Shown here piece by piece: positions 1-62,430 of a stretch of DNA of 64,000 nucleotides (position 1 is its first letter; every line of letters starts with the position of its first letter). Under the pieces are notes generated by a model, which did no database searches, was not told the DNA's origin, and saw only the letters and a program-made list of their open reading frames with translations. This DNA comes from Raillietiella orientalis. Lineage: Eukaryota. Location: contig JAYWIR010000074.1 in assembly GCA_036172245.1 (NCBI GenBank), forward strand, positions 124,001-188,000. Reading direction: 5' to 3'. The translations under genes were made by a program, and so were the position numbers.

Positions 1-47
1 ATTGACCGTTGAAATGTTTTTAATAAACGTCCCGGCGTATCCGGGTG
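1..47 (+). mobile_element. 3' terminus of a non-LTR retrotransposon extending upstream of the window
   Basis: AATAAA (22-27) followed by cgtcccggcgtatccgggtg, the same terminal hairpin that ends the other elements in the window. Confidence 0.8.
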
Positions 48-1518: not shown

Positions 1519-2585
1519 ATCGAACTCCTTGTGGAGATCGACCGCGAATGCCAACGCTCCCGGCGTTCCGTCCTGCCGTCGGGGCCTGTTCTCGCCTGCG
1601 GCAGTGACTTTTTGAGCAGCCTGGCTTTGCTGCGCCACAACTTCCTGCAGCTGCATCCATGTACGCGCGAACAGCATGTTCCCTTCCATGGATTGTCCCG
1701 GAACGGCGTACGTTTGTTCCGGGCTCACCACAGATTTCGCGATACTTCCTAACCGCGCGACCGACAGCTTCGAAAACAACTTGACGTCCGAGTTCATCAA
1801 GGTGATAGGACGCCAGCTGTTAAGTTGACACAAGTCTCCGGCTTTCGGCAAAAACCGCACCTTCGCTGAACGGAAGGAATCCGGGACATTCCCGGATTCA
1901 CTCATCAGCGTCGCGAGTTTCAGCATCAAGGGAATGAGCTCCACTGCAAAGCACTGATAAAACTCTGCAGGAAGCCCATCCTCGCCTGGCGACTTTCGTC
2001 TCTCCAGCCCAGCGATTGCGGACGAAAATTCATCCGCCGTGAAGGGCTCGTTGAGACGTTCGCGCTCCTCCTCGCCGACAACACGAGCATCATGAGACAG
2101 GAGTATCTCAGAGAGAATATCCTCCGTCGGGGAATCCGCGGACAGCAAGGAGTAGTAGCGTCTCACAATTAGGCGTACTTCGGCTGGGGCCGAACATTCC
2201 TGGCCCTTGTCGTCCAACAGGCATGCTGCTCCGGACTGCCAGACCTGGCGCTCGGCCCTCGCCTTGTACTCTGCGAGACGCCCGACATCCGCGCGTCTCG
2301 AAAACGTGCGGGCCTGCACAAAGTCTCTACTGTTGGTTACGCCCTCATCGCAACCGCGTGGAAGCCGTTGCAAGGGGAATTGGCAACCGAACTCGCGGAC
2401 AGATCTTTTGAGATCGTCCTAGTCCGCAAGTTCTTGAATGGCAAACCCTCGGAGGTATCCACGTAGATGCTTCGCAGCCTCCGGTTGGCTATGCTAATCC
2501 ACCTGCATCCTCCAGTTTTGCAACGGAGGCACCCTGCCTGGCGGAAGGATCTCAAACTCCAGCCTGTGGTGGTGAGAAAGCCTAG

Positions 2586-3233
2586 TCAACAATGTCCCTC
2601 TCCTACCCACACGCGAATGCAGTTTTCATCGAGGAAAACGCGATCGAGCGATCTTTCCATTCCAGGTTCGCTGACCACCAAGTTGGCGGGGTGCACGCAC
2701 GCGCACATCTCGATGGGCAGCGCGCGCGCCCTCGGGCGGCTCCAATCGTCGGATAGCAGGAGGACGTTGAAGTCCCCAGCGACAAGGTGCGCCACTTGGA
2801 AATCGGAGATGTTGAGCCAGTGGCTCTGCACCTCACCAAAAAAAGCTTCTCTTTCCTCGAGGTAGCGAGAGCCACTCGGTGCGTAGACGTTCGTAAAGAC
2901 GAGATCGATGGACTCGGACCACTTGATTAAAAGCTGGCGTATTTTTCCGTCGTAATCGAAACGAACACTACGCACCGCGTTCGCCATTTTTCCACTTTCG
3001 AGGAACGCGAAGCCGCATGTGTGTGCGCCGCCGCACCGCCAATGTACCGTTTTGCCTGCGCGCTCCTCGATTTCGGCTGCCTGCTCGTAAGAGATTACGT
3101 GAATCTCCTGCAGGAGCGCGAGGTCGAAGGGGCGCACGGCGTTGACTACTAATCCCCTCTTCTCGTCGTTCTGCAGTCCGTTCACGTTCCAACACGTTAC
3201 GGACAGACGACGAGAAGACGCGATTCCCCGCAT
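2586..3233 (-). pseudogene. B1 ORF2 APE-type endonuclease domain (frame broken before the RT)
   Basis: MRGIASSRRLSVTCWNVNG...LQEIH...NVYAP...GDFN...SLDR; ATG at 3233 overlaps an upstream TAA (TAATG). Confidence 0.85.
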
Positions 3234-3790
3234 TACTGCTAAGAAGGTGGCGGCTTTTTGCAAGCTTTATCCGGCGAGCAGACAGCGAGCAGCACGACTG
3301 GCTGGAGGGGACGGTCGCCACCGTCCTCTGTCGTGCTGCATGCATGTAATGCCTCCACGCCAAGCTTAACCCCGTCTGGTTTCGTGGAGACTTCGCGTTG
3401 CTTCGCGGCGAGCGTTGCCTGGCTGCCTACTTTGATCGGCGCGCACACGCTTTTGAACGAGTTGTCCTCGTCTCGGTGATCGGAACGGCATCCATTTCGG
3501 AGTCCGAGGGGTGCATGTTCGATCGGGTTTGGGTCTTCCGCGAATAAGTGATAGCTTCTGCTGGATTGACAGCTGCCCTGTTGTCTATATCCGTCACCAG
3601 AGCAACGCTTTTGGTGACGGCTGCTTTCCCGGCGCGCGTTTTCAGCGTGTTTGCGAGCAGTTGCACGAGGGACCTTTGCTGAAGTCTTGTTTACTTCATT
3701 AAGGTTCCTCAGTTTGCTTGGCGCCGTAAATGGAGATTGTGCTCCATTGCCATCTTTGAAGCCATGCGCTTCTTTGGACGGGAGCGGTTC

Positions 3791-5152
3791 CTATGGCTCC
3801 GACACGCTCGTCATGGACGCTGCCTTTGGAAGGGCTTTTAATCCCTTCGTTGGCATGGCATCCGCGACAGTCAAGAGCTTGCTCTCCGACTGCGACGGCG
3901 TGAGATTTTTCTCCGCTTTCGCGGTGTTGGATCGCGACGCGGATTTTTTTTTGCCGACTTTCGATGTCGAAACGGCACAACCCTTCTTACCCGATTTGGG
4001 CTTCTCAGCCACTACAGGAGGTGAAGGAATGGACCTGACGGTACTGGAAGTGTCCTTACCGCCGTTGTCCATTGGCGTCCCCGCCGGTTGCTCGAACTCC
4101 GAGAGAGCTGGGCGTGCTTGGGAAAAAGAGCTATTGCGCCTAGGGGGACTTAACATTGCCCCGGATTCCCCGCACCCTTTCTTTTGCGGCTCCCCTGCCG
4201 CTTGTGGGGGCGCGCAGGGCTTCGCATGCGAGGCTTCCTGCTGCTTTAGGGCGACATTCCGTTTCCCGTTTTTACGGAATTTCTGCCGTGAGGTCTCCAA
4301 ATTTTGCGCAGATTTTTTCTTTTTATCCGCGCTTTGTTTTTTCAGATGGAGCTCCGCGGCTGCCTTTTCTCGCAAAAGATCTGAGCAATTTTTCAAATAA
4401 TGCTTGGATACTTTGCAATAATCGCATTTTCCAGCGGGGCATTTATCCAAACAATCCCCCTTCTTCCCACATTGCTCGCACGTTCTTACTTTGTTCACGA
4501 ACCACAGGTGGACGACCGTGGCTTTCACCTGTGGTATGGTGGGCAGCAGACGGCGGTCCGGCATTGTAAGCCGGACTCCAGCGACTCCGCTGTGTATGGA
4601 CGGGAAGTCCTTGAGGTTGCTAGGCACCCTCCACAGCGCATGGACCGTGGCTAATTTCGGGAACGCGTTCCGAATTTCAATATGCAAGATTTCCGACTCG
4701 ATGTCGAAAATCTCCGCCACAAATGAGTCGTCCATGGCGGCCGCGAAGACCTTCTGGTGACGGATCGACAACAGGGTGCGCAGCAAGCGTTGCACAAGTG
4801 CAGCGTCTTTGCAACGTACACTGAAATAGCCCATATCCTTCATGGGCATAATAGCGAGGAGGTCCTCCTCCCGCACCCTAACACGAGTCAGTTCATCGTT
4901 CAACTGATTCCCGTCGCGCGCAGAAAGAAAACCACTCACCTTATATCGGAGAGCAGGTCTATAGCCTTGGGCTACGTATGCCCGCAACTCCGACTCGTCG
5001 ACTGGTTTCCCTTTGACGGCTGCTGTGGCAGCAACGTCAGCAAAACTCCTCTCCATTCGCGAGAATGACGGAGTGGAGGCGGCCGTCGGTTCCGCGATTG
5101 CAGATCCGGATGCTGTTCCTCCAACTTCAGTAGCTTCGGGTTGGGTCGACAT
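3791..5152 (-). pseudogene. B1 ORF1, gag-like nucleic-acid-binding protein with two zinc knuckles; premature stop at 3791
   Basis: CEQCGKKGDCLDKC and CDYCKVSKHYLKNC, then a Lys/Ser-rich tail; similarity to B2 continues past the stop. Confidence 0.8.
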
Positions 5153-5230
5153 CGTCGTCAAAATGTACGACGCCAAGATGAAGCGGATGAAAGCACGGAG
5201 ACGAGAGCGAAGAAGTACACGTTTGCACTC

Positions 5231-7079
5231 GATTGAAATCTCCCGCTATCAGGTGAGCCTTCCGCACGTTGGTGTCCGCCAGCCAGTCGCGCTTCAGGGA
5301 TTCCAGCAGCCTGGTGCGGTCGCTGTATCCCTGCTTACCGCTGGAGCCGTACACATTCGTGACGATCAGTTTGATCGATTCGGACCAGCTGAGAATCAGT
5401 TAACCGACCCGAACGTCATCATCGAAGCGCACGCCCTTCACGGTAGCGTCGATGGCCGGCTTCACGAAGAACGCGACCCCGCAGGTGTTGCGGAGGCCGC
5501 AACGCCAATGCAACCGACCACCCGCGAACGTCTCGATCTCCTTGGCGTCTGCCGCGGTGATCACTTGGATCTCCTGCAGCAGGGCCAGGTCGAGCTCACG
5601 CAGGGTGTCGGCCGTAACTCGCATGTTACCGTCGTTGCGCAGCCCGTTGACGTTCCAACAGGCGGCGCGAATACGACGGCGACTGGCGAGCCCAACTGTT
5701 ACTCCTGGGAAGATGGCGATGCGGCGTCAGCCACCTGTTGGGGCGGAACGCTAGGTGGAGGACGAGGGTCAGGCGCTGCGTGCACCTGGTCCCCCTCCTC
5801 CATGGGTAACGGCGCGTCGAGCGGGTCACCCTCAGGTGGGGTCGCGCCTTCCTGATGGCCCTCCTCCATGGGGGCGGGCTGTTCAGGCTCGGGGACTGCA
5901 GGGAGGACATCGCTCACCTGCTCACCCTCTTCCATGAAGGTGGCCGTCTCGACGGCTTCCGAGCGTGGGAGTTCCCACTCCGGGATTCCCACGCTACCGC
6001 TACCTTCCTGCTTCCCCTCCTCGCTGGTGGAGGGGAGGTGCCTCCTGACTTGCGTCCCGACATCCTGCGGGGTGCCTCCGAGGAGAAGGATGCACTTCCG
6101 GCACCCAGGTCCGACTCACCTGTGGGGGCCTTTTTCGCGGGAGCCGGCCTTCGCACGGCCTTGCGTGAGGGGTTCTCACGCTCCACCAGCGTGGCCGCGA
6201 GCTCCTCCGCCGCCTTTGCGAACGCGGCGTACTCGGTGTCGACAGGCGCGTCGCGCGGCTCACCCTCTGTTTGCACAGAGGGTTCGCCGTCGCGAACTAC
6301 GGGCGCGACGGAAACGGCGAGGGGAGGCTCGTCGCCCCGGGTGGCATCTTACGGAACGACGATACGTTCCAGTGGCACCGTGCACTCGCGTACGGTTTTC
6401 GAACGCGGCCCGGGTTTTTTTCCCTTACCGGCCGGCTTCTCTTTCTTCTCCTTAAGAGGAGATTTTCTCTCTTTTCTGGCTGCTACAAGTTGCCAGCCCT
6501 CTTCACCTTCCGCCTCTTGGGAAGGTTTATCCTCCCTCTTTTCTTTTGCAGGTTGAGGATCTGGCAGCTTCAGGCGGCCAGCGTCCGCCTTAGGTCTAGT
6601 GACATTTACTGCGCGTTTCCCCTGCGCCTTCTTCGCGGCAGGAGGAACCGGGGAGTGGCGTTTTAGGCACACACGTCGAACGTGGCCCTTCTCCTCCCAC
6701 ATGTGGGATTGGATGTTAGGTCACCTCTTGCGAAGGTGTCCTACGGTATCGCAGTAGCCGCAATATTGAGGCTTTTCCACGTACCAGAAGTCCACGCTCT
6801 CTTGCGCGACCTCCAGCTTGTGGGGAAGCCCACAGTCCTTACTCACGGTTAACCGCGCTGCAGCCTGGCCTCCGAAATGGCAATTCAAGCCTTCAAAGGT
6901 TGTTGGCTTAGGCCACAGCACGTGCACCTCGCCGAACTTCCGTAGTTCTTGTGCTACCGCAGAGCGAGTCATACGGCTCGTTATTCCAGTGAGATGGACT
7001 ACCACGGAGCGGTCCATCGTCACCGGCAAGATCTTGCGGCCGTCGACGTTCAACGGGTTGGTGATAAGAGTCTGAGCCT
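5231..7079 (-). mobile_element. Family A, inverted 5' segment (most of ORF1 plus EN up to GDFN); host of B1
   Basis: ORF pieces 6721-7076, 6349-6702, 5914-6276, 5699-5992, 5400-5624 and 5231-5354 match A copies at 10097 and 17516; ends at HLIAGDFN where B1 begins. Confidence 0.85.
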
Positions 7080-7288
7080 TTGAAGACTGGGACCTTTTTA
7101 AGGAATCGGTCCGCAAGTTCTGTGAGCAGTTCCCCCTGGATCGCCTGCCTTCCGGATTCGGCGAGGGTGCTTGCAACCATCGAGCCTATTTACAGGCTCG
7201 TAGGTACGAGAGAACCCCTAATATCCGTCGCCTGGCCGAGTACCGCGCCGGGGCCGAACGCCAAGCCTGGCAATCCGGGTCGGCCAGC

Positions 7289-10077: not shown

Positions 10078-10096
10078 ATAACGCCGAATCCCTTGG

Positions 10097-10113
10097 CGAG
10101 TGGACGTGTTTTT
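10097..10113 (+). promoter_or_regulatory. Conserved 5'-terminal motif containing (G/A)GACGTGT, candidate internal promoter element
   Basis: At the 5' tip of A (10097, 17516), B (11808; variant at 5231 minus), E (37378 minus) and C (23907; 63777 minus), while the rest of the UTRs diverge; absent from D. Confidence 0.5.
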
Positions 10114-11799
10114 CCTTCGCTCCCGAGTAAGTCGACAGGAAGCGGTTTTGTCTTGAATTGTTTGGTGTGGAACATCGTTGGTGTCCGATGGCAGCGATGC
10201 CTGAGGAGACCACGATGGAGGTAGGTGTGGGGGAGGCTTGCCCACCCCCACAGCCTACAGAATCAAGGGCGTCCGCCCCGGAATCGCCCTCGCCGCTCAA
10301 GGCGAGGAGCTGGTGCGCCATGGTGGCCGCGCCGAGCGTGGAAACCATGGCCGAGATGGCGGCCTACCGGGCAGCTGGGTACAAGCCCAGCTTGGTGTAC
10401 CAGGTAGGCCCTTTATTTGATGGAAAAACGGCACGCGCGTTTACGAAAGCGCTGCAAAACGCCTGAGTAAGAGAAAAAGATCTTGACGGTTTGTCCGTTC
10501 TCAGCGGAGGTCAGCGAGTCGAGGTGGTGTGCAAGGAGATCACCTTGGCTCAGACTCTGATCACCAGCCTGCTGAACGTCGACGACCGCAACATCCTGCC
10601 GGTGACGATGGACCGCTCCGTGGTGGTCCATCTCACTGGAATAACGAGCCGTATGAGTCGCTCTGCGGCAGCACAAGAACTACAGAAGTTCGGCGAGGTG
10701 CACGCGGTGTGGCCTAAGCCAACAATCTTTGAAGGCTTCAATAGCCATTTCGGAGGCCACGCTGCAGCGCGGTTAACCGTGAGTAAGGACTGTGGGCTTC
10801 CCCACAAGCTGGAGGTCGCTCTAGAGAGCGTGGACCTCTGGAACGTGGAAAAGCCCCGGTATTGCGGCTACTGCGATACCGTAGGACACCGCGAAAAAGG
10901 CCCCCACAGGTGAGTTGGACCTAAGGGCCGTAAGTGCATCCTCCTTCTCGAAGGCAAGGCTCAGGAAGTCGGGACCAAATTCTCAGAAACCCAGGAGGCG
11001 CCTCCCCTCCACCAGCAAGGTAAAGAGACACGAAGTTAGCGGTAGCGCGAGAATCCCGGAGGGGGACCTCCCACGCTCGGAATCCGTCGAGACGGCCACA
11101 CCCATGGAGGAGTGTGAGCAGGAAGGCGATGTCCTCCCTGGAGTCCCCGAGCCTGAAAAGCCCGCCCCCATGGAGAAGGGCCAACAGGTATGCGCGACCC
11201 TACCTGAGGGTGACCCGCTCGACGCGCCGTTACCCATGGAGGAGGGGGACCAGGTGCACGCAGCGCCTGACCCTCCTCCTCCACCTAGCGTCCCGCCCCA
11301 ACAGGTGGCGGACGCCGCATCCATATCTTCCCAGGAATAACACCTGGACTCGCCAGTCGCCGTCGGATTCCCGCCGCCTGTTGGAACGTCAACGGGCTGC
11401 GCGACGACGGTAACAGGCGAGATACGGCCGACACCCTGCGTGAGCTCGACCTGGCCCTGCTGCAGGAGATCCACGTGATCACAGCGGCAGACGCCCAGGA
11501 GATCGGAACGATCGCAGGGGGTCGGTTAAATTGACGTTGCGGCCTCCGCAACACCTGCGGGGTCGCGTTCTTCGTGAAGCCGGCCATGCACGCTGCCGTG
11601 AAGGGCGTGCGCTTCGATGACGACGGTCGGGTCGGTCTGCTGATTCTCAGCTGGTCCGATTCGATCGAATTGATCGACACGAATGTGTACGCCCCCAGCG
11701 GTAAAAAGGGATACAGCGACCGTACCTGGCGGCTGTAATCCCTGAAGCGCGAGTGGCTGGCGGACATGAACGTGCGGAAGGCTCACCTGATAGCGGGAG

Positions 11800-14271
11800 A
11801 TTTCAATCGAGTGCGGACGTGTTTTTCTTCGCTGTCGTCTCCGTGCTTTCATCCGCTTCATCTTGGCGTCGTACATTTTGACGACGAAGTCGACCCAACC
11901 CGAAGCTACTGAAGTTGGAGAAACAGCATAGGGATCTGCAATCGCGGAACCGACGGCCGTCTCCACTTCGTCTTACTCGCCAATAGAGAGGAGTTTTGCT
12001 GACGTTGACGCCACAGAAGCCGAAAAAGGGAAACCAGTCGACGAGTCGGAGTTGCGGGCATACGTAGCCCAAGGCTATAGACCAGCTCTCCGATATCAGG
12101 TGAGTAATCTTCTTTCTGCGCGCGACGGGAATCAGTTCAACGAGGAACTGATCCGTGTTGGCGTGCGGGAGGAGGACCTTCTCGCTATTATGCCCGTAAA
12201 AGACATGGGCTATTTCAAGGAGCGTTGCAAAGACGCTGCACTTGTGGAACGCTTGTTGCGCACCCCGTTGTCGATGCGTGGCCAGAAGGTCTTCCCGGCC
12301 GCCATGGAGGACTCATTTGTGGTGGAGATTTTCGACATCGAGTAGGAAATCTCGGATATTGATATTCGGAACGCGTTGGCGAAATTCGCCACGGTCCATG
12401 CGCTGTGGAGGGTGCGTAGCAACCTCAAGGACTTCCCGTCCATACAGAGCGGAGTCGCTGGATTCCCGCTTACAATGCCGGACCGCCGTCTGCTGCCCAC
12501 CAAACTACAGGTGAAAGACACGGTCGTTCACCTGTGGTTCGTGGGCAAAGTAAGAACGTGCGAGCAATGCGGGAAGGAGGGGCATTGTTTGGATAAATTC
12601 CCCTTTGGAAAATGCCGTTATTGCAAACTATCCGGGCACTAATTGAAAAATTGCCCGGATCTTTTGCGAAAAAAGGCAGCCGCAAAGCTCTATCTTAAAA
12701 AACAAAGCGCGGATAGATAGAAAAAATCTGCGAAAAACCTGGAGAACCCACGGCAGAAATTTCGAAAAAACGCGAGGCGGAATGTCGCCCCAAAGCAGCA
12801 GGAAACCTCGCTCGCGAAGCCCTGCGCGCCCTTTCTCGCGGCAGGGGAGCCGCAAAAGAAAGGGTGCGGGGAATCCGAGGCAATGGTAAGTCCCCCTAGG
12901 CGCAATAGCTGTCCTTCCCAAGCACGCCTGGCTCTTTCGGAGTTCGAGCAACCTGGCGGGGACGTCAATGGACAGCGGCGGTAAGGACACTTCCAGTACC
13001 GTCAGATCCATTCCTTCACCTCCTGAAGTGGCTGAGAAGCCCAAATCGGTTAGGAAGTGTTGTGCCGTGTCGACTTCTAAAGTCGGCAAAAAAAAATCTG
13101 CGTCGCGATCCAACACCGCGAAAGCAGAGAGAAATCTCACACTGTCGCAGTCGGAGAGCAAGCTCTTGACTGGCGCGGATGCCATGCCTACGAAGGGATA
13201 AAAGCCCTTCCGAAGGCAGCGTCCATGACGAGCGTGTCGGAGGCATCGAAACTACTCCCGTTTAAAGACGCGGATGGCTTCAAAGATGGCAATGGAGCTA
13301 AATCTCCTTTTACGGCGCCACGCGAAGTGACGAACCGCAATGAAGTAAAGAAAACTTCAGCAAAGGTCCCTCGTGCAACTGCGCGTGAGCACGCTGAAAA
13401 CGCGCGCGCCGGGAAAGCAGCCGTCACCGAAAGCGATGCTCTGGATATGGAAAAAGACAACAGGACAGTTCGCTGCTCCCTCTTGCTTGGAAAGAAGCTG
13501 TGCTGCTTTTCGTTTACTGGGGTTTTCAGTGCAACGAGCGTTGGCATCGTGACTCCGGGGGACTTGCGTATGCGAACTGCGTTGGGTTCGGATCGACGGA
13601 GTGGATTCCGCACCTACTTCTGGACTGCGGTGTCCCACAAGGACTGTGGCGTAGGCTGGCAACAGCACTAATGCATCCCGTGGACGCCGCAAGAGACTTG
13701 CTGCGACGATTCTTCACGCCGAGCGGGCTGTCACTAAGCGCAAGGATTGCAACCATCGGTTGCAAACGCGCGATAGTTTCCGTCGGCCAGGCGTTGGTAA
13801 TCAACGGACAGCACCAAGAGGTAATCAGCAAAGCATCCTTCTACATGGGAGCTTCCGCTAGATGGCCTCATTTGACAGAGGAGACAAAAAGGAATCTCGC
13901 CGCAATACACTGCCGGTTTACACACCCTTAGCAGCGGACAACCCGGTGATCATTGCCCTACCCTCCATAAACAAATTTTGTATTTTCTTTTTACACCTGC
14001 GTCCCCATAGGCTCCGAAGCATTTTAGGTGCTCATCGTTTAAATCCCCGTGAGTACGGAGCCTAACCAAAAACCCGTTAACCTTCCCTCGAGGTTTTGAT
14101 TTTTGTTTGTTTCCCCTCATTCCTCCCACGCTGCGAGCGGTTTGTTTACCAGGCCTGCGTGCCAATAACTTTTCTATGTTCTCTGTCGTTTTGTTGGTTG
14201 AGGACATTGTCTCTGACCAGTTTATTATTATTAATAAACGCCCCGGCGTGACCGGGTGATAAATTTCAATC
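11800..14271. repeat. 9-bp TSD ATTTCAATC (11800-11808 and 14263-14271) flanking B2
   Basis: Exact direct repeat; the same 9-mer in reverse (gattgaaat 5231-5239) borders B1. Confidence 0.9.
11809..14262 (+). mobile_element. Family B copy B2: internally deleted element (decayed ORF1 joined to the extreme C-terminus of ORF2; no EN, no RT)
   Basis: 11809-13470 is colinear with B1 (5230-3575); it then jumps to LLFVYWGFQCN...PHLLLDCG (13500-13931); AATAAA 14233 plus hairpin; perfect TSD. Confidence 0.9.
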
Positions 14272-15994
14272 TCCGTCTGCTAACAGGTGAGCCAGAAACA
14301 CAAGAGAACGCGATGAACGAGTTGTGCGTCGCCATGCGTGCGGGCAACTTGTTCGAGGGTGAGAGGGGAATGGTCCGCAGCAACGACCACGTCTTCCTCG
14401 ACGCTGACCTGTCTTCACGGGTCGGCAAACAAAGGAGGGTTGCGTCGACGTTGTCGGACCATTCCCGGTTGATTTTCAAGATGCGGCTTCGCGACAAGAG
14501 ACCGCCATCCAGGGATTGGCGTCTGGCGAGGGAGTGGACGCGACTCCCTGGTGCGAAGGAACACCTTCGCGAATACCTGAGAGGCGTCACGCTCCGGAAT
14601 CTCCATTGAAACCCGGGTGCGCTGGGACGTTTATTCTCACGAATAAACCCATACAAACAGTGACTGGACCAGTAGTCCAGCCACGCCCTGTAAAGATATA
14701 GTTTGCCTGGCTACCGGTGCGCAGGTCGGAGCGGGCAACCTCGGCATCAGAGGGGAGGGGGAACGAAACAAAAAGAAAACAAAAAATAAACAAAAATCAG
14801 GGAGGGAGCGGGAAGGGATCACAGTCTGCTGGGTGGGTCCGTCATCCTCTTGAAGATGCCGGCAAGCTGTTTCTGCGTGTGTGGTTTCAGATGGGGCCAT
14901 CGATTCGCCACCCTGAGGAAACGGGCGGCATACCCGTTGGCATCCCTGTCGCTGGATCCTTCCGTCGCTTTGCTCCATGCCACGACGATCCCCCGTAGGC
15001 AGCACAGGGCTGCAAGCGAGGCCGCTGGAGGCAGGGCGTCACGGACAAAGAGCGTCTCTGATGTTGCCTCCGGGGATCCCCAGGGCTGCGGCAAAGCGTT
15101 CTCACAAGTGACGGAGGGCAACACAATCCACTAACAGGTGGGGGAGGTATTCACTCTCCCCGCACCTGACACAATTAGGGTTGACACCCCCCCGCGTCCA
15201 GAGGTGTCGGCGGGCGTTACAAGGAAGCCCCCAATAAAACACCAGCAGTGCCGACTGTTGCCACTCCACAATGAGGGTGCGCTAGTCCATGAGCACCGGG
15301 GGCCACTCGAGATGTTCCTCTGGAACATCCAGTTGCTCTCCCCATCGCAACAGTCCATTTGGGGTGGTCCTCGGGGTCGCAGCGTTAGTGAGCTGACCCG
15401 TTTTCCAATCCCCGATTTTCTTTGCCCTGCTGGCGATCTTGACAGTAACCTCCCATTGTGCCGCTACGTCGCTGATCAGATGTTCCCGTAGGGAGAGCAA
15501 TACCGCAGCAAGGGAATGTCTTTGTGCCCACGCTCTCCTTCGGGGATTCTCGATGATTTCTCGGAGCGTGCGGTGGGCATGAGACCCGAACAGAGCTATT
15601 CGCTCGTGTTGCGGGATCTGCTCCTGAATCATCGCTCACGTGCGGACGGTTTCCTGCAACCAGGCAGGACCGTTCACGGTGCGTACGAGGATCCGGTCCG
15701 AGTTGTTCTTCAGGAGCTTGGCCGCCCTCCGAAGTTGAAGTCCGCAGTGGCAGATGGGGATTCGAAGTGCAAAGTAGCACGAGAGTCTCGCATTGCCGGT
15801 GGCCCGCTCGACGAGGAGTCGTCCAGGGAGGCACCAAGGGGTGCACCAATTTTCTGCCATAAAGGCAAAAACTCGGAACTGGAGCTGTAGCTCCAGCCGC
15901 TCCAACGTCAGGAGGCCCAGACCACCATCCCGACGAGGAGCGCACAAGTCCGAAAGACGGACTCGGTGCCTCCCTCTGCCCCAAAGGGCGATCC

Positions 15995-17320: not shown

Positions 17321-17498
17321 TATCCAGGTTTCTCAGTGGGAACTGAGTGCTCCCGGCCCTTGTTGTCCAGCAAGCTGGCCGACCCGGATTGCCAGGCTTG
17401 CCTCTCGGCTCCCGCTCGATACTCTGCTATCCTGCGCATGTCGGGGGTTCTCGCGTAACGTCGGGCCTGAAGATAGCGCCTTTCGTTACGCGGCCCCT

Positions 17499-20400
17499 CC
17501 CCAAATCCCTCTCCTCGAGAGCGGACGTGTTTTTCCGACGCTCCGCGAACGAGCAGAGGAAAGCGGTTTTTGTTTGGTTCAGTGTGAGGTTTATCACATC
17601 GTTGGTGTTCGATGGCATCGCTGCCAGAGGACAAAACGATGGAGGTAGGCGTGAGGGAGGCTAGCCCCCTCCACGACCTACAGAATCAGGGGCATCCGTC
17701 CCGGAATCGCCCTCGTCGCCCAAGACGAGGAGCTGGAGCGCCATGGTCGCCGCGCCGAGCGCGGAAACCTTGGCTGAGCAAACGGCCTACAGGGCCTCCG
17801 GATATAAACCATCCCTGGTTTATAAGGTAGGAAACCTGTTCGACGGTCGCACCGCGCGTGCCTTCAGCAAGGCACTACAGGAATTCCCCGTGTGTGAGGA
17901 GGATTTTGACGGCCTCGACGTACTCAGCGGGGGGCAACGCGTGGAGGTCTTCTGCAAAGACGTAGCCCTAGCGCAGCGCCTCATCAACACCCCGCTGAAT
18001 GTGGCTGGCCGAAAGATCCTACCCGTTAGCATGGACCGCTCCGTAGTGATCCATCTCACGGAGATCACGAACCGCATGACGCGCTCTGCGGTGAACGCGG
18101 AGTTGAAAAAATACGGAGATGTGCACGCGCTGTGGCGAAAGCCAACCATTTTTGACGGCTATAACAGCCTCTTTGGTGGCCAGGCAACAGCGCGTGTCAC
18201 TGTGAACGAGGGTGCTGAATTACCCCACAAACTGGAGGTCGGGTAGGAGCCCGTCGACCTCTGGTACGTAAGGAAACCCCGCTATTGTGGCTACTGCGAT
18301 GCAGTAGGGCATGTGCGCAGGCGGTGCCCGAATATCGAGTGCCACTTGTGCGGGGAAAAGGGACACGTCCGTCGTGTGTGCCCTAAACGCCCCATTCCGG
18401 TGCCACCTGCTGCCAAAAAGGCACAGGTGAAAACGATGAATAAGGTCGAAAGACCTCATCGCGCGAATATCCGGCCCCAGAAGCCTTCCCCTCCTCCATC
18501 AACCCAGGCGGCAGCGGAAAAAACCGCGAAACACGCGGGCGAGGAAGAAGGATGGACGCTGGTAAAGGCCAGAAAAGAACCCAAAAAGGGTTCACAAGAG
18601 AAGGCGGAGAAAAAGTCGGTCGCGAAGGCGAAAAAACCTGGTCCGCGATCTAAAACTCTCCGCGAGTGCTCGGTAGCACTGGAGCGCATCAACGTTCCCG
18701 AGGCTGCCACCCGGGGCGACGAGCCTCCCCTCGTCGTTTCCGCCGCGCCCGAGGTTCGCGACGGCGAACCCTCTGTTTGCACAGAGGGTGAGACGCGCGA
18801 CGCGCTCGCCGCCGGCGAGGACGCCGCCTTCGCGAAGGCGGCGGAGGAGCTCGCGGCCACGCAGGCTGAGCGTGAGAACCCCTCGCGCAAGGCCGTGCGA
18901 AGGCCGGCTCCGCCGAAGCAGGCCCCCGCAGGTGATTGCGATCTGGGGGCCGGAAGTGCATCCTCCTCCTCGGAGGCATCCCCCCGGAAGACGGGACGCA
19001 AGTCCCAAAAGCCGAGGAAGCGCCTCCCCTCCACGAGCGAGGAGGAGAAGCTGGAAGTCGCCGGCAGCGTGGGAATCCCGGAGGGGGAGCTCCCACGCGC
19101 GGAAGCCGTCGAGCAGGACACCCCCATGGAGGAGGGTGAGCAGGGGGGCGAAATCCCCCCTGCCGTCGCGGACCCTGAGGAGCCCACTTCTATGGAGGAG
19201 GGCCAGAAGGTAGGCGCGACCCCACCTGAGGGTGAACCGCCCGACGCGCCGTCACCGATGGAAAAGGGTGGCCAGGTGATAGAGTAACCTGTCCCTCCTC
19301 CTTCACCTAGCGTCCCGCCCCAACAGTTGGCGGACGCCGCACAACCGATTTCCAGGAATAACACCTGGGCTCGCCTGTCGCCGTCGAATCCGCGTGGCCA
19401 GTTGGAACGTCAACGGGCTGCGCGACGACGGCCACAGACGAGATACGGCCGACACCCTGCGTGACTTTCACCTGGCCCTGCTGCAGGAGATGCACGTGAT
19501 CACCTCGACAGACGTCCAGGAGATCGGAGCGATCGCGGGGGGTCGACTGTATTGGCGATGCGGCGCCCGCAACACCTGCGGGGTCGCGTTCTTCGTCAAG
19601 CCGGCCATCGACGCTGCCGTGAAGGGCGTACGCTTTGATAACGACGGTCGGGTCGGTCAGCTGATTCTCAGCTGGTCCGACTCGATCGAATTGATCGTCA
19701 CGAACGTGTACGCCCCGAGCGGAAAAGGGGGATACAGCGACCGTACCAGGCTACTGGAAACCCTGAAGCGCGATTGGCTGGCCGACACGAATGTGCGGAA
19801 GGCACAAGTGATAGCTGGAGACTTCAATCTCCGTCTGCTATCAGGTGAGCACGAAGCACAAGAACGCACGGCCAACGAGTTGTGCGCTGCCATGCGCACG
19901 CGCAACTTGTTGGCAGACGCGGAGGGAATGGACCGCAGCATCGACCACTTCTTCGTGGATGTCGACCTGTGCTCACGGGTCGGCAAACGGGGAAAAGTTG
20001 CGTCGACGCTGTCGGACCATTCCAGGATCATCGCCGAGGTTTGCCCGCGCGACAAAGGACCCCCGTCCAGGGCGCGGCGGCTGCCTGGGGACTGGACGCT
20101 GCTCTCAAGGTGCGAAAGAACACCTTCGCGAATTCCTGAGAGGCGTCACCCTCCGCAGTCTCCAAGACTAGTACCTCTTCAAGGCCACGGTCCGCGAGTT
20201 CTGGGAGGAGTTTCCCCTGCACCGCCTGCCCCCCGGATTCGGGGAGGGAGCTCGGAACCATCGGGCTTATCTACAGGCCCGCCGGTGCGAGAGGACCCCG
20301 AATGTCCGTCGCCTAGCGGAATATCGAGCCGGGGCCGAACGCCAAGCCTGGCAATCCGGGTCGGCCAGCTTGCTGGACGACCAGGGCCGGGAGCGATCCG

Positions 20401-23180
20401 CCCCACCCGCGATCAGGCACCTCGTGCGACGTTACTACTCCTGCCTCTACGCTAGGGCACCCCCAGAGCGGAACGCATCGCGGCTCCTGCTCCCGGATGG
20501 AGCCCCGGCAATAGGGTAGGAGGAGAAGATCAGCCTCGATGAGCCTTTTTCTACCGGTGAAATTCTCGCCGGTATTAAAAGGCTCAAGAGGCGAAAGGTG
20601 CCAGGGGAGGACGGCCTGCCTGCGGAATTCTTTCAATGTTTTGCGGCAGAGCTGGCACCCCTGGTGCTTCAGTTGACCGGGCTGATCCGAGACGAAGGCG
20701 ACGTTCCCGCCTCGTTTCGGTCAGCCCGTGTGAGGCTCCTCCCGAAGGAAGGAGAGCTGAGATCCTTGGGCAATTCGCGTCCGATCACAATGGTGAATAC
20801 GGACGCCAAGCTGATCGCTGGACTGTGGGCTTTGCGTCTAGGACAGGTGGCAGACTCCATAATTTGCCCGGAGCAGACGTACGCTGTTCCCGGGCGAAGT
20901 TAGGATGCCAACCTGTTCTTCGCGAGCACATGGTTCCATGTGCAGCGCTGCCTGAACGACACAGGGGGAAAGATTGGCAACCCCACTTTGGGACCGCCAG
21001 CTGGGCTAAGAATGGATACCCGGGCTGGGAAAGGAGCCCTAGCAATCGCGGTCGATCTCCACAAGGCGTTCGACTGCGTAGACCAGGAGCTACTGTTGGA
21101 GCTCCTGGGTCGCATGGGCTTCCCACCCTCCCTTCTCTCCTACCTGCGCTCATGCTGGCGCAATGCCATTGTCAACATCGTCTTTTCCAGCCAACAGGTG
21201 TACGGCGTGCCGGTGCGGCGGGGCATACGGCAGGGCGATAGCCTCAGTCCCCTGCTCTTCAGCACCTACTTTGAGTTGGTGCTGAGAGCGTACAGGGTGA
21301 CTTTGGCTGCCCTGCCCAGCTCGTGCCCCGGCACGCCCGCCGTTGCAGCATACGCCGACGATCTTCTGCTCATGTTGCCCATGTCCGCACCGGCAGCCGC
21401 AGTCGAGGAATTCTTCGACGTGCTAAGTCGTGGGACTAGACTGCGGGTAAACAAGGCGAAGTCGGCGGTCGTACCGGTCGGTGCGACATGGGTCGGACGG
21501 CCTGACTGGATCCTCTTGGGGATCCCCACGGCCAGGTACCTGAAGTACCTGGGTGTCTTGTTGGGGGACTTCTGCCTCGCAGAAGCCTGGTCAGGTCGTC
21601 TCCAGAAGGTAGAGTTGGCAATCGGCCCGTTCCTGGAAGGCAAGTTCCTTCTGCCGGAACGGGCCGCGGTGTGGAACGCCTTCGCAGCTCCCATTCTCCG
21701 CCCCCTGCTTTTTGTGTGCCCCGTCCCCCGTGAGGTTAAAAAGAGGACAAAAGACCTACTCCGCATCGCCCTCTGGGGCAGCGGGAGGCCACGTGTGCCT
21801 CTGGATGATTTATGCGCTCCTCGTCGAAACGGCGGTCTCGGCCTCCTGACGCTGGAGCGCCTGGAAATACAGCTGCGATTGCGCACCCTCGCCATCGCAG
21901 CAAAGTCATGAAGCACTTCTTGGTGCGTTCCGGCCCGAATCCTCGCCAGCCGTGTGTCCAGGACGCAAGGACTCTTGTCGTACTTTCTGTGCTCCAGCAG
22001 GAAGGTGAGAAGATGCGGCCTTCTTCTTAAGCGCACGGAAGCCCTGATCAGAGACAACGGCTGGACGGTATGCAGCCCCGCCAACTCCTCCGCCTGGCTG
22101 AGGAATCAGTTGCGACGTGGGCCAAGCTGAACCTCCAGACTTCCCCGGACTGGAACCGCCTGCGATTCGGCCCCAACGCCCGCTGCACACTGCGGACTAC
22201 TCTGGAGTGTCCCGCCAGGAGCACGTGGGCAGAGACCACCTCTCTAGCTTCGACCCTGTTCTTCCTCCGGAGGGCTTTATCCAGCGGCCGCAAGCCAAAG
22301 TGGCAAGTCTCCTGCCGAATCGCAGTCAAGGAGAAGAAGATGAGCGGTTGGACCATGGGAGAACAGGCGGATGCCACGACCCCGAGTGCCCTCCCTCGTG
22401 GACTTCGTCGATTTGGCGAGCTGCTCGGCATCCCGACGGATGACCTGAAGTGGCCCCCAATACTGATAGGATCCAGGCTTCTCCCCCTGAAGTGGCAAGA
22501 GTCGGCGATGCTGCTGTTGCACTGGGGTCTACCCTGCAACGCGCGCCGCTTCCACTGGACGCGGGGAAGTGTAAGGCCTGATTGTGCCAGATGTGGGGAG
22601 CGGAAATCGCTCCCCCACCTACTAGCTGACTTTGCTGCCCTACAACCCCTGTGGGAACGGTTCTGGACGACCTTCGGGCTCCCAACAGGCAGCGCGCCCG
22701 GAGACGTTCTTCAGCCCCTCTTCGTGCGGGACGCCCTGCATCCCGCCGCAGCCCTCGCAGCCCTCTGCTGCATCCGGGGCATCGTGGCGGCCTGGAGCGA
22801 CATTCGCGACGAAGGAGTGGATGCCAACGTGAGGGATGTCAACCCGTATGCGGTCTGCTTCATGCGGAGAGCAGCGAGATGGCCCCATCTGGGAAACATA
22901 AAGATGGACCTAGAGGGCATGCTGCGTAGGATGGACCCTCCTCTAAGTGGAACGTGATTCCCTCTTCTCCCTCCAAACTCTTTTTTGTTTTCCTTATCTT
23001 TATTTTTCTTTTTGTTTTGATCCCTATCCCCCTCCACTGCCGACGAGCGTCGCGCCGGGCTGCGTCCCGGCGTCCCGGCAGGTCCGGTGTTGTGTGGCCG
23101 TTAGTGGGGTCTCGTACCACGTTTATGTAGAGTTTTTTCAATAAACGCCCGGGCGTACCCGGGTGACAACCCCAAATCCC
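17499..23180. repeat. 11-bp TSD CCCCAAATCCC (17499-17509 and 23170-23180) flanking the inner A copy
   Basis: Exact direct repeat; removing the insert restores host E protein LPAGFGEGPRNERRYLQAR on the minus strand. Confidence 0.9.
17516..23169 (+). mobile_element. Family A (second subfamily), full-length uninterrupted copy of about 5.65 kb with stops and frameshifts
   Basis: 5' end cgagagcggacgtgttttt; ORF1 pieces 17612-19287 with CCHC knuckles; EN from about 19361 (WNVNG, LQEMH, GDFN, SDH); RT 20940-21911 (YADD); C-terminus 22070-22957; AATAAA 23140 plus hairpin. Confidence 0.9.
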
Positions 23181-25403
23181 GCAGGTAGGCGATGCAGGGG
23201 GAACTGGTCGCAGAACTCCTGGACCGACCGCTTGAAGCGGTCCCAGTCGTGAAGTGTCTGCATCCTGAAGCTCCGAATAAACGCGCGGAGGTGCTCCTCC
23301 GCGTCGGGAAACTTCAGCCAGTCCCCGGGCAGACGCCACACTGACGAGAAGGGGCCCTTGTCGCGCGGACGCACTTCGAACATGATCCGACCATGGTCCG
23401 ACAGCTCGGATGGTACCTTGCCGCGCCTGCCCACCCGAGAGCATAGGTGCTGATCAAGGTACACGTGATCGATGCTGCTTTCCATGGCCGTGTTCCCGGC
23501 CAACAAGTTGCGCGTGTTCATTTCTGCGCACAACTCGTTGACGCGCTCGTTCAGTGTATCCGGCGCACCTGAAAGCAGGCGCAGGTTGAAATCACCTGCG
23601 ATCAGGTGCGCTTTGCGAGCTCCTGCATCGGTCAGGCAATCGCGTCTCAGGGAAAGGTAGAATTCCCTTCTTGCCTTCGCCCTCAACGCGTTGTTTCCGC
23701 TAGGAGCGTATAGGTTGGTGACGACCAGGTCGATAGAGTCGGACCAGCTGAGAGTCAGCTGACCGACGCGACCTGCGTCATCGAACCGAACGTCCTTTAT
23801 TGCGGTCTCGATGGCTGGCCGAAGCAGGAAGGCGACACCGCTTGATTTCACGGTGCCGCAACGCCACAACTGCCGCCCACCCGAGATCCGTTCGATCTCT
23901 TGCGCTCGTACAGTGCAGACGTGTTTCCGCGTCTATCCGCGCCAACGATCGTGCAACTTTGTGCCTGCGTTTTTGCTCGCACTTGTGTGTTTCTGTGCAA
24001 TCTGCCAAGTAGCATAGTGCAACATGGCGAGTACACAGGATAGTGTGGAGGAGCAAGCCACTGAATGCACTTCAGCTGCACTTGAAGTGGCCGCATCCTC
24101 CGTAATGGTTTCCTCGCCCCCGGTGAGGAGTTACGCCGTCGTTACCTCCCAAAGACCAGGACCCTGCGATGCGGAGTTCCAGGCATATGTGTCATCAGGA
24201 TACATGCCTGCACTCCGTTATAAGGTCAGTGGGCCACTTAACGGGAGAATGGGTCGTGAGCTCAATGATGAGCTCGTCCGGATAGGCGTTTGCGAGGAGG
24301 AACTCCTTGCCATGATGCCTGCCGGCAGGATGGAATATACGAAGATTCGGTGCAAGAACGCAGCTCTTGTGCAGCGCCTTCTCCGTACGCCGTTGACCAT
24401 CAATGGAAAGGAAGTCCTACCTACCGCGATGGACAACTCTTTTGTCGTTCAATTGTGCGACATCGAACCGGAAATCTCCGACCGCGATGTCGTAAGTGTG
24501 CTGGCGATGTTCGCCGCCGTGCACGCTCTGTGGAGGAGGCCAAATCCTCTAAAGGATTTCCCCTCTGTCCACATTGGACAAGCCTCCGCAAGGATCACCG
24601 TCGCGAACAGGCGTGTTGTGCCTGAGCAGCTGCAGGTGAACGGCACGGTCGTTCACCTGTGGTTCATAGGCCAGACTCGCGCGTGCGAGCAGTGCGGCAA
24701 GGATGGGCACCGAATTAAAAAGTGCCCCTCTCCAAGATGCCGCTATTGCAAAGATTCCGGGCACGAAATCAAGAAGTGCCCGGTACTTGCAAGAAAAAGA
24801 GCCGCAGCGGAAATTCGTCGGGTTCAAGAGACCAGTGCACGAAAAGCCGCAGCGGCAAATAAAAAACGTCGTCCGCAAACACTCGAAAAAAACCACGAGC
24901 GATCCGCGGATAAAAAGAAAGCATCCCCGCCCGCAACGCCCCGAAAGGGGAAAGTCACGGCGGGGAAGCCAATTAAAAAGGGGCGCGAGGGTTTGACGCC
25001 TGCCGTGCCTTCCCTCTCTGCCTAACTCGCAGGCACCTTTCTGAGCCTGGAACCAGGAAATCTCCGTAACACCCTGGAGGGAAAGGTAGGAAAACAGGAA
25101 GATCGCAACAGTGCGAAGACTTCTTGCCCCGTTCCGTTGTCCCTTCCGAGTTCCGGACAGCCCCACTGCAGCGCAGGCCCCACTGCAAAGGCTACAAAAG
25201 CCGTAAAAAGCAGCGTCGCGACGAGCAAAAGCACGCTGCATGCAGTAGCCCCATCGCCGACTCGGCAGGTTTCCCCAAGTCCCACAAGGGGTGGGGTAAG
25301 TTTATTTTTCTATAAAAATACAAAATTTACATTCGCACGCTCACTCACTCAATACAATTATTTTGCACTTGGGGGTCCTTGGGTTGCACTAGAGTTCTGC
25401 TAT

Positions 25404-28922: not shown

Positions 28923-28935
28923 AAAAGGGGAAGAC

Positions 28936-30721: not shown

Positions 30722-31562
30722 CCTGGCAGCTGGTCCTGCTGCACGAAACCACTGCAGGTCTTCCGCCGCGATCTCCTCGGCGCTTCTTTTCTAGTTTCGT
30801 TTGGAAAACTTCCCCTCTCCGGGCACACACGAGCACAATGAACTGATTAACTTGTCAAGCGCACAATACTTCGAGCCGCGGGGCAAGTTCACCGACTCGG
30901 CAGGAGAGGAGCGATCTCCCGACTGTCAAGAAGGTGACTCCGTTGCCGCCTTTTAAAGGCGTAGCGAAAGCAACGCTTCCAGAGAACGCAGCGAAAATCC
31001 CGGAGGTTTCCGCAACTAATGTCGCGGAAGCCTCCGAAAATCGCGAAGGCGAATGGAAGGTTGTGGAGAGGAGGAAAGAAAAATCTCCAAAGAAAGCTCC
31101 GCAACCTCCATCCCTCAGCTCTTCCAAAGGAAAAAGCAGTCGCGCGAATACGAAAACACGCGCGGCTTGTGACTCTTCCAAGGAAAAAGCCAACGCCTTC
31201 AACGCGTGCAAGTCCGCTTCTGTGACCGCCGAGAAGACCATTCCGGTGCAATCGGACGGATGCAAGCGCACATCGATCGTGCGAGCTTCAGACTTCGCAA
31301 AGGAGTCCGATAACGCAGCTGAACGACGCGTAACTCGCGCGGGAGCGAGCGCCCGCAGGGCTGAAGCCCTGAGGCGTGACACACTCGCCGCGGAACGGCG
31401 AGTGCTCACCCCGGAACCCACAGGTTCTGCACCCGGGGAGGAGCACCCGATTACGTGCAGCACAGTTGAGGCCGGTGGCGACCGCGCCCGCCAGCCCGTC
31501 GTGCTGCTTACTGCCCGCTCGCCGGGTGAGGCGAGCACCACGGCCTCGCTTTCCCAGCCGTG

Positions 31563-51169: not shown

Positions 51170-51185
51170 CCTGCCGAGTCGGCGA

Positions 51186-56797: not shown

Positions 56798-56813
56798 CCT
56801 GCCGAGTCGGCGA

Positions 56814-62414: not shown

Positions 62415-62430
62415 ACTGCCGAGTCGGCGA

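What the first reader, a model, noticed from the sequence alone, without database searches (positions are those of the whole stretch)
11790..14280. Family B inserts into the catalytic GDFN codons of the family A endonuclease
The TSD ATTTCAATC covers the Asp-Phe-Asn codons of GDFN, an APE active-site motif, at both B copies. Inference: targeting a constrained motif gives a stable target and inactivates the host element. B is the only family here inserted in the same orientation as its host. B's own motif is coded ggggacttcaacgtc and is unoccupied.
Basis: partly seen in the sequence, partly recalled or inferred. Interest (0 to 1): 0.8.

Follow-up and report, generated by a model that had tools for sequence, protein, structure and literature searches.

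The report
LINE inserted in another LINE's GDFN codons
A retrotransposon sits, with a clean 9-base duplication, exactly in the codons for the catalytic Gly-Asp-Phe-Asn motif of a sister retrotransposon's endonuclease, but the two copies in this window may be one insertion that was later duplicated.

Summary
B1 (11809-14262, +) is flanked by ATTTCAATC on both sides, and an uninterrupted paralog (A3) carries the site once, as GGA GAC TTC AAT CTC (AGDFNL). B2 (minus strand, from 5230 leftwards) has the same 5' junction. Its 3' junction lies outside the window.

The elements are APE+RT LINEs of L1-like architecture in a nest of sibling families. Other families in the window use their own fixed sites. 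B is therefore most likely a target-specific LINE that integrates in sense at the GDFN codons (confidence about 0.7).

The window does not show two independent hits:
- Host and insert pairs are equally and neutrally diverged: A1-A2 119/1243 = 9.6%, B1-B2 165/1657 = 10.0%, Fisher p = 0.75.
- The two loci form an inverted repeat whose inner end lies at an endonuclease nick site, not at family A's own landing site.
- A second, younger inverted duplication in the window has the same layout.

One insertion later copied is about as likely as two insertions.

Contigs of one public run show a third, full-length B-like copy with the same junctions, and an empty site. Many earlier notes of this scan report the same GDFN targeting on other DNA of this genome; I could not test them. 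I rate it a new variant of a known kind.

The parts
10098..11808 (+). Host A1, 5' part: conserved 5' end GAGTGGACGTGT, ORF1 remnant with a 596-bp deletion at 10888, and the endonuclease N-terminal part up to ..LIAGDFN
   Evidence: BLAST to A3 17519-19829; tblastn with A3 EN aa 23-182 at 11328-11807; junction letters; deletion
11796..11807 (+). GGAGATTTCAAT, the Gly-Asp-Phe-Asn codons of A1
   Evidence: Codon pattern scan, 7 matches against 0.17 expected; translation; alignment to L1-EN GDFN
11800..11808 (+). Left copy of the 9-bp target-site duplication ATTTCAATC
11809..14262 (+). B1: 2454-bp internally deleted copy of family B. It has a complete 5' end (GAGTGCGGACGTGT), an ORF1 remnant at 11809-13250 with 4 stops and 2 frameshifts, two CCHC knuckles near 12550-12650, an ORF2 C-terminal remnant at 13464-13925, and a 3' end ..AATAAACGCCCCGGCGTGACCGGGTGATAA without poly(A)
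   Evidence: (46% identity to G ORF2 aa 1047-1200)
13463..13468 (+). Breakpoint of the roughly 3.4-kb internal deletion of B1 (end of ORF1 to ORF2 aa ~1046)
   Evidence: The B1/B2 alignment ends at 13468/3573. X1 contigs run on unlike at 13468 and 13463. The letters behind 13468 match B2 at 3572-3547
14263..14271 (+). Right copy of the duplication ATTTCAATC
14272..14605 (+). Host A1 continued (LRLLTGE.., rest of the endonuclease), up to the next nested insertion, C1, which has the 17-bp duplication ACGCTCCGGAATCTCCA
1519..5230 (-). B2: 5' 3.7 kb of a full-length-type B copy. ORF1 is open (484 codons, 3791-5245); endonuclease at 2616-3245; RT up to DLHKEFD at 1519, with 1 frameshift and 2 stops in ORF2. 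It is then interrupted by a + strand element
   Evidence: Exo_endo_phos 32.8 bits
2763..2777 (-). B2's own GDFN codons GGGGACTTCAACGTC, uninterrupted
5231..5239 (-). ATTTCAATC at the 5' junction of B2. The partner copy is outside the window
5231..7078 (-). Host A2: family A coordinates ~450 to GDFN, 90.4% identical to A1. Its end at 7078-7082 abuts A_x at the nick of the C-type site
19817..19828 (+). Empty GDFN site of paralog A3 (GGAGACTTCAAT, one mismatch to the 9-bp target)

Best explanation
Family B is an APE-type LINE of about 5.9 kb. It has an ORF1 with two CCHC knuckles, an ORF2 with endonuclease and reverse transcriptase, a conserved 3' end without poly(A), and no LTRs. It belongs to a group of sibling LINE families that land inside one another.

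Mechanism (inferred):
- B integrates by target-primed reverse transcription, in the same orientation as its host.
- Its endonuclease nicks the antisense strand of the host gene between GGAG and ATTTCAATC. That 3' end primes copying of B RNA from its conserved 3' end.
- The sense strand is cut 9 bases further on, which gives the duplication ATTTCAATC.
- The insertion splits the host's endonuclease at its catalytic Asp/Asn and so kills that host copy.

What is shown: the precise insertion, its place in the codons, the empty paralogous site, and the anatomy of B.

What is inferred: the nick order, that B's own endonuclease reads this sequence, and that GDFN is B's regular target.

The window holds at least one such integration. 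B1 and B2 are either two hits or one hit that was later copied together with its host.
For: Exact 9-bp duplication around B1, with the site present once in A3.

B1 and B2 share the same 5' junction and complete 5' ends carrying the terminal motif found across the sibling families.

B has its own endonuclease and RT.

Sibling families in the same window use their own fixed sites:
- Family A lands at C[GC]CC[GA]AATCCC in two hosts with different sequence: A3 in C1 with an 11-bp duplication, and A_x and A1 in tandem.
- C1 sits in A1 with a 17-bp duplication.
- Family T has CTGCCGAGTCGG at every junction.
- E sits after the DLHKEFD codons.

In run X1:
- A 3755-nt contig carries 30 nt of A flank, then B 5' sequence (90 differences in 1690), then goes on as full-length B.
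- A 1040-nt contig carries B's 3' part through the duplication to 14281.
- One contig has the empty site.
- Among the loose ends shown (11 listed, 82 more not shown), no B end joins an unrelated flank. The two at 14233 and 14264 are family G.

Only the two sites with exactly GATTTCAATC are occupied. A3 (GAC) and C1 (AAC) differ by one base each and are empty.
Against: Independent hits are not shown.
- A1-A2 and B1-B2 differ by 9.57% and 9.96% (p = 0.75), both neutrally (omega 0.84-1.17 and 0.80), as expected if host and insert were copied together.
- The arms form an inverted repeat. A2's inner end is not at family A's own site, which is intact in A_x at about 7152-7166.
- If the pair is one event, GDFN targeting rests in this window on a single insertion plus analogy.

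The X1 copy may be an ortholog of B1 rather than a separate event. Only one B-like contig covers B's 5' part there (summed depth about 15).

No relative was found in the metagenome scans, and no whole genome is held for this window.

No endonuclease assay exists.
Confidence: 0.7

Rival explanations
1. One B insertion only, then a DNA-level inverted duplication. A1 with B inside was copied in inverted orientation after a break at the endonuclease nick site in A_x (7083). That gave arm 3573-7078 as a mirror of 10547-13468, with a 3.5-kb spacer. B1 and B2 then count as one event.
For: Host and insert have equal neutral divergence, with no step at the junction: per-150-bp bins run 5-16% throughout, 9.57% against 9.96%, p = 0.75. 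Omega is about 1 in both.

The host branches are equal: 53 against 49.

A2's end lies within 1-2 nt of the C-type nick (..CTCCA|GGACT), lacks the 17-bp duplication, and is 77 nt away from family A's own site.

A second inverted duplication (25254-36039 against 51185-40402, 94%) has the same layout. It starts right after A1's 3' end, with inverted microhomology CCTCCAA/TTGGGGG.
Against: The 7078/7083 junction has a 4-nt filler and no inverted microhomology.

Disabling lesions are uneven. B1 ORF1 has 4 stops and 2 frameshifts; B2 ORF1 has none (6:0, p = 0.03). Counting B2's ORF2 as well gives 6 of 9, p = 0.03. This is a weak sign of unequal age, and it is contradicted by 36 against 57 unique substitutions measured with a poor outgroup.

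The outer end of the arm cannot be seen: B1's deletion hides it on one side and the window edge on the other.
Confidence: 0.35
2. One B insertion only, then retrotransposition of a composite A-B-A transcript. B lies in sense, so read-through from A's promoter is possible. A2/B2 would be a 5'-truncated retrocopy of the composite.
For: Equal neutral divergence of host and insert. B is in sense orientation. A2 is 5'-truncated at family A coordinate ~450 and abuts a nick site. Most copies in the window are 5'-complete, which points to processive reverse transcription.
Against: It needs an RNA of about 11 kb that reads through B's own 3' end signal (AATAAA plus the conserved terminal motif), and mobilisation in trans. 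The landing point is the C-type nick, not family A's own site.
Confidence: 0.1
3. B has no site preference. The position in the GDFN codons is a chance landing in a region made almost wholly of LINE sequence.
For: If B1 and B2 are one event, the window has a single observation. The nest offers little other than LINE coding sequence to land in.
Against: Every sibling family mapped here uses a fixed site. If the two hits were independent, the same nucleotide and strand in a host of about 5.7 kb would be expected about once in 11,000 (my arithmetic). The X1 contigs show the same junctions on a copy 5% different from B1.
Confidence: 0.05

Closest known systems
Tx1L/Tx2L of Xenopus and other target-specific APE-type LINEs of the Tx1 and R1 groups
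   Same: An APE endonuclease plus RT element that integrates at one nucleotide of a repeated target, with a short fixed duplication and precise ends. The target can be another mobile element: 'transposons' are among the listed targets, and Tx1 and R1 are named as the APE-type target-specific clades (PMC4640811, introduction, passages seen). Tx1L-EN nicks almost only at its target in vitro (PMC1950540, passages seen).
   Different: Here the target is protein-coding sequence of a sister LINE, the codons of its catalytic GDFN motif. Several sibling families each have another site in one another's genes. That Tx1L lands in the DNA transposon Tx1D is my recollection and comes from no call. Placement of B in the Tx1 clade was not tested. 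The best database relatives are only about 30% identical L1-like proteins.
Zepp (Coccomyxa / 'Chlorella') and ZeppL LINE clusters of green algae
   Same: L1-type LINEs that form GC-rich clusters of nested copies by inserting into existing copies (PMC3446292 and PMC8226300, passages seen).
   Different: The Zepp passages describe arrays made mostly of 3' ends, owing to 5' truncation, and name no fixed nucleotide or codon target. Here most copies are 5'-complete and the junctions are exact. Homology to Zepp was not tested, because I had no reference sequence.
Cnl1 of Cryptococcus and MoTeR of Magnaporthe (LINE arrays at chromosome ends)
   Same: Non-LTR elements that pile up in arrays of their own kind (bioRxiv 10.1101/2021.08.11.455996, passages seen).
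   Different: Those are subtelomeric arrays. No coding-motif target is described in the passages I read. That Cnl1 inserts into earlier Cnl1 copies is my recollection.

Membership tests
APE-type non-LTR retrotransposon (LINE), L1-like architecture | Apurinic-type endonuclease domain N-terminal in ORF2 | tested here: met
   B2 2616-3245(-): Exo_endo_phos 32.8 bits (cut-off 24.5). Sister G ORF2: 44.4 bits. A3 EN: 50.7 bits, and it matches L1-EN structures 2v0s and 1vyb.
APE-type non-LTR retrotransposon (LINE), L1-like architecture | Reverse transcriptase domain following the endonuclease | tested here: met
   B2 1519-2610(-) aligns to G ORF2 aa 220-583 at 66% identity, up to DLHKEFD. RVT_1 is found in the ORF at 1480-2418(-) only below Pfam's cut-off (22.1 bits against 29.6) and in G ORF2.
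APE-type non-LTR retrotransposon (LINE), L1-like architecture | Target-site duplication, no LTRs | tested here: met
   9-bp duplication. The ends are unlike each other.
APE-type non-LTR retrotransposon (LINE), L1-like architecture | 3' poly(A) tail (typical of L1 proper) | tested here: not met
   B ends ..CCGGGTGATAA directly at the duplication. Families A, G and C1 likewise lack a tail.
Target-specific LINE (as in the Tx1 and R1 groups) | Repeated independent insertions at the same nucleotide of the target | tested here: inconclusive
   Two copies share the junction, but equal neutral divergence of host and insert and the inverted-repeat layout allow a single event. A third copy in X1 may be an ortholog.
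Target-specific LINE (as in the Tx1 and R1 groups) | Empty copies of the same target exist | tested here: met
   A3, C1, G and B2's own GDFN codons are uninterrupted. There is an empty-site contig in X1.
Target-specific LINE (as in the Tx1 and R1 groups) | The element's endonuclease nicks the target sequence specifically | not testable with these tools
   Needs a nicking assay.
Tx1 clade | RT phylogeny places the element within the Tx1 clade | not tested
   No reference sequences were at hand. Database hits are unnamed L1-like proteins of about 30% identity, many with zf-RVT.
Zepp / ZeppL | Sequence homology to Zepp ORF2 | not tested
Zepp / ZeppL | Clusters of LINE copies nested in one another | tested here: met
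   Nest map.

The most novel reading that the evidence does not exclude
B is one member of a guild of sibling LINEs in which each lineage homes to a different conserved codon motif of the others' ORF2 (GDFN, DLHKAFD, sites after the endonuclease, and others). B's target is the catalytic GDFN codons, and whether a copy is hit depends on its synonymous codon choice. Copies reading GAT TTC AAT C are hit. B itself (GAC TTC AAC G) and hosts with a single third-position change escape. This would be an arms race fought at silent sites between retrotransposons, and it would also build the repeat island.
Probability: 0.25. Interest if true: 0.8.

Novelty: new variant of a known kind. Interest (0 to 1): 0.55.

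Why it matters
Target-specific LINEs are known for rRNA, snRNA and tRNA genes, telomeric and simple repeats, and some DNA transposons. A LINE whose landing site is the catalytic-motif codons of other LINEs would be a parasite of its own kin.

The target is held in place by selection on the host element's enzyme. Each hit kills a competitor. Repeated hits would build nested LINE islands of the Zepp type, for which no nucleotide-level rule is given in the Zepp and ZeppL passages I read.

It would also offer natural endonucleases with new, defined 9-20-bp specificities.

For this window the claim is limited. There is one secure integration at that site, and the second copy may be a duplicate.

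Tried and rejected

Metagenome scans:
- B2 ORF1 as protein query: 255 pattern matches, none confirmed.
- The conserved B/G 3' end as a DNA pattern: 0 matches.

Protein database: the family A RT found one relative at 65% identity, and the remaining 70 of 71 hits were 34% identical or less (mostly 22-30%), unnamed or generic. This gave neither context nor clade.

Sequencing runs: X2 and X3 hold next to nothing of the stretch apart from a low-complexity spot at 14752-14790. That says nothing about presence.

Loose ends in X1 at 14233 and 14264 first looked like B ends at another target. They match family G's 3' UTR (35439-35459) and G's own flank (35507-35520), so I rejected them as B.

Selection tests meant to show that the hosts, or the B copies, diverged while still active gave omega near 1 for A1-A2 and B1-B2. 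Polarised B changes were 9 synonymous to 27 non-synonymous on one branch and 17 to 40 on the other. No signal either way.

Relative-rate and lesion counts point in opposite directions, so I drew no conclusion on relative age.

The 3' terminal hairpin has 0 of 7 predicted pairs with compensatory change, so no structure claim is made.

The earlier-notes look-up by sequence returned nothing (B1's 3' part) or only an unrelated phage note sharing 2 of 180 words (B2's 5' part). The look-up by place near the window returned nothing.

Literature searches found no paper describing a LINE that targets endonuclease codons. Subscription-journal papers, for example the original Zepp paper of 1997, were not readable here.


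Full report
What is there.

The window is a nest of related non-LTR retrotransposons.
- ORFs match RVT_1, Exo_endo_phos and zf-CCHC.
- The family A endonuclease matches solved L1 endonuclease structures.
- Database relatives of the family A RT are L1-like proteins of about 30% identity, plus one metagenome hit at 65%.
- No whole genome is held for this window.

The insertion.
- B1 occupies 11809-14262 (+), between two copies of ATTTCAATC at 11800-11808 and 14263-14271.
- The host, A1, reads ..VRKAHLIAGDFN | B1 | (FN)LRLLTGE.. .
- The uninterrupted paralog A3 reads GCTGGAGACTTCAATCTCCGT, which is AGDFNLR, with the site present once.
- So the 9-bp duplication is real. It covers the last two bases of Asp, then Phe, Asn, and the first base of Leu.
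- In the alignment to the L1 endonuclease, AGDFN pairs with MGDFN, which by counting along the chain is G144-N147.
- The D145A/N147A double mutant gives 0% retrotransposition, and D145A keeps 3% of nicking activity (PMC1950540, Table 1, passage seen).

Anatomy of B.
- B1 is an internally deleted copy. Its first 1660 bp align with B2 at 90.0% (165 differences in 1657).
- Its last ~800 bp encode the C-terminal 154 residues of an ORF2, 46% identical to aa 1047-1200 of sister family G, followed by a 3' UTR.
- The 3' end is ..AATAAACGCCCCGGCGTGACCGGGTGATAA, without poly(A). Families A, G and C1 share this terminal motif.
- B2 lies on the minus strand from 5230 leftwards. Its ORF1 is open for 484 codons. 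Its endonuclease is at 2616-3245, with its own GDFN coded GGGGACTTCAAC. Its RT runs up to DLHKEFD at 1519, where a + strand element interrupts it.
- By analogy with G (5921 bp, intact ORF2 of 1201 aa), full-length B is about 5.9 kb.
- B2's 5' junction (..GGGAGATTTCAATC|GAGTGC..) is the same as B1's. Its 3' junction is outside the window.

Context: fixed sites are the rule here.
- C1 (-) sits in A1 (+) with a 17-bp duplication, ACGCTCCGGAATCTCCA, at 14589-14605 and 37379-37395.
- A3 (+) sits in C1 (-) with the 11-bp duplication CCCCAAATCCC. A_x's 3' end is followed by the variant CGCCGAATCCC and then by A1's 5' end. So family A used this motif in hosts of different sequence.
- G (+) sits in C1's endonuclease.
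- T copies carry CTGCCGAGTCGG at every junction.
- E (+) sits exactly after the DLHKEFD codons of B2.
- All these pairs are antisense, and B is in sense.
- One more junction, the 3' end of an element at 22-51 abutting E on the same strand, means B is not strictly the only same-strand case.

Are B1 and B2 two hits? This is the crux, and the window does not settle it.

For a single event:
- The host pair differs by 119/1243 = 9.57% and the insert pair by 165/1657 = 9.96% (Fisher p = 0.75). There is no step at the junction and no long identical tracts.
- Both divergences are neutral. Omega is 0.84 (EN) and 1.17 (ORF1) for A1-A2, and 0.80 for B1-B2. In contrast, A1 or A2 against A3 gives 0.43-0.55.
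- The host branches are equal: 53 against 49 with A3 as outgroup.
- The two loci are the arms of an inverted repeat, 3573-7078 against 13468-10547, with a 3.5-kb spacer.
- A2's inner end at 7078-7082 abuts A_x within 1-2 nt of the nick of the C-type site, without the 17-bp duplication. Family A's own site, 77 nt further on in A_x, is intact.
- A second, younger inverted duplication (25254-36039 against 51185-40402, 94%) has the same layout. It starts right after A1's 3' terminus, with inverted microhomology.
- Together these suggest fold-back-type repair of endonuclease breaks, which would copy host and insert as one piece.

For two events:
- Fixed-site insertion is the norm in this nest.
- B1's ORF1 carries 4 stops and 2 frameshifts, while B2's carries none (6:0, p = 0.03). 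With B2's 3 ORF2 lesions included the split is 6 of 9, p = 0.03.
- In simulation an ORF of this kind stays open after 50-70 random substitutions only 13-6% of the time.
- Against this, B2 has more, not fewer, unique substitutions than B1: 57 against 36, measured with an outgroup only 55% identical. Neither branch shows selection.

I put two independent hits and one copied hit at roughly even odds.

Outside evidence.
- One public run, X1, holds 0.18 of the sampled words.
- A 3755-nt contig starts 30 nt inside the A flank. It follows B for 1690 nt with 90 differences and then goes on where B1 has its deletion. The letters there match B2.
- A 1040-nt contig covers 13463-14281, through the right-hand duplication.
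- One contig skips 11799->14263, the empty site, though its shorter side is only 21 letters.
- At the three places in B where X1's difference from B1 is listed (11960, 12954, 13198), X1 has B2's state.
- So a third, full-length and less decayed B-like copy exists with the same junctions. It may be an ortholog of B1 in a related strain. Only one B-like contig covers the 5' part, so it does not prove a separate event.
- Contigs show presence only. 82 loose ends were not listed.

Occupancy.
- The codon pattern GGNGAYTTYAAY occurs 7 times (0.17 expected).
- A1 and A2 (GATTTCAATC) are occupied.
- A3 (GACTTCAATC), C1 (GATTTCAACC), G and its duplicate (GACTTTAACG) and B2 itself (GACTTCAACG) are empty.
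- Family T has GDLN instead.
- This fits sequence-dependent targeting and escape by silent changes, but the numbers are tiny, and A1 and A2 may be one case.

Mechanism.
- The sense orientation and the duplication imply a first nick on the antisense strand at GGAG|ATTT and a second nick 9 nt downstream on the sense strand. This is inference from the standard target-primed model.
- The shared 5' (GAGTG.GGACGTGT) and 3' termini, combined with different landing sites, suggest sibling lineages that diverged in endonuclease specificity.
- No compensatory changes support a 3' hairpin.

Known relatives and novelty.
- The closest in mode of action are target-specific APE LINEs of the Tx1 and R1 groups, whose targets include other transposons (PMC4640811, passages).
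- The closest in genomic habit are Zepp and ZeppL clusters (PMC3446292, PMC8226300, passages).
- In five searches I found no paper naming endonuclease codons of another LINE as a target.
- Earlier notes of this scan report the same GDFN targeting, in sense and with a 9-bp duplication by a 5.9-kb family, on many other pieces of this genome and in different host families. I could not read that DNA. The notes raised my prior but are not counted as evidence.

Verdict.
- This window alone secures one integration, not two.
- It is a new variant of a known kind, of moderate to high interest.

Noticed in passing
window 7078-7083 and 40402-40408: Both inverted duplications of the window begin at an endonuclease nick site. 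One begins at the C-type site in A_x. The other begins right after the 3' end of A1, with inverted microhomology CCTCCAA/TTGGGGG near 36040. This suggests fold-back repair of LINE endonuclease breaks as a second way the nest grows.
   Followed up: partly
window 1496-1519 (junction), element 52-1495 (+): A + strand LINE (E) ends ..CCGGGTGAAAA exactly against the antisense of the DLHKEFD codons of B2's reverse transcriptase. This is an antisense insertion in the RT motif, as earlier notes of this scan report elsewhere in this genome.
   Followed up: partly
window 22-51: The 3' end of another element (AATAAACGTCCCGGCGTATCCGGGTGGCA, + strand) abuts E on the same strand at E's codons RPLLFVCP. It is a second same-orientation junction, cut off by the window edge.
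   Followed up: no
window 25254-30904 (-) and 45532-62430 (+): Family T (5.64 kb, endonuclease motif GDLN) is present once in one arm of the large inverted duplication and three times head to tail in the other. CTGCCGAGTCGG is repeated at every junction. This points either to repeated hits on a regenerated target or to unequal exchange.
   Followed up: partly
window 23916-25254 + 30905-35486 (+): Family G, B's sister (ORF1 44% and ORF2 58-66% identical in protein), has an intact ORF2 of 1201 codons (31530-35132). It sits antisense in C1's endonuclease near aa 71-82. It may be a recently active copy.
   Followed up: partly
window 10093-10103, 17488-17518, 23171-23181: Family A's own target is C[GC]CC[GA]AATCCC (antisense of ..GGGATTYGGSG.. 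in ORF2), with an 11-bp duplication, 77 nt downstream of family C's 17-bp site. A_x and A1 lie in tandem on one such site, with 5-7 extra bases at the 5' junctions.
   Followed up: partly
window 10888 and 13463-13468: The right arm carries two large deletions that are absent from the left arm: 596 bp in A1's ORF1 region and about 3.4 kb in B1.
   Followed up: yes
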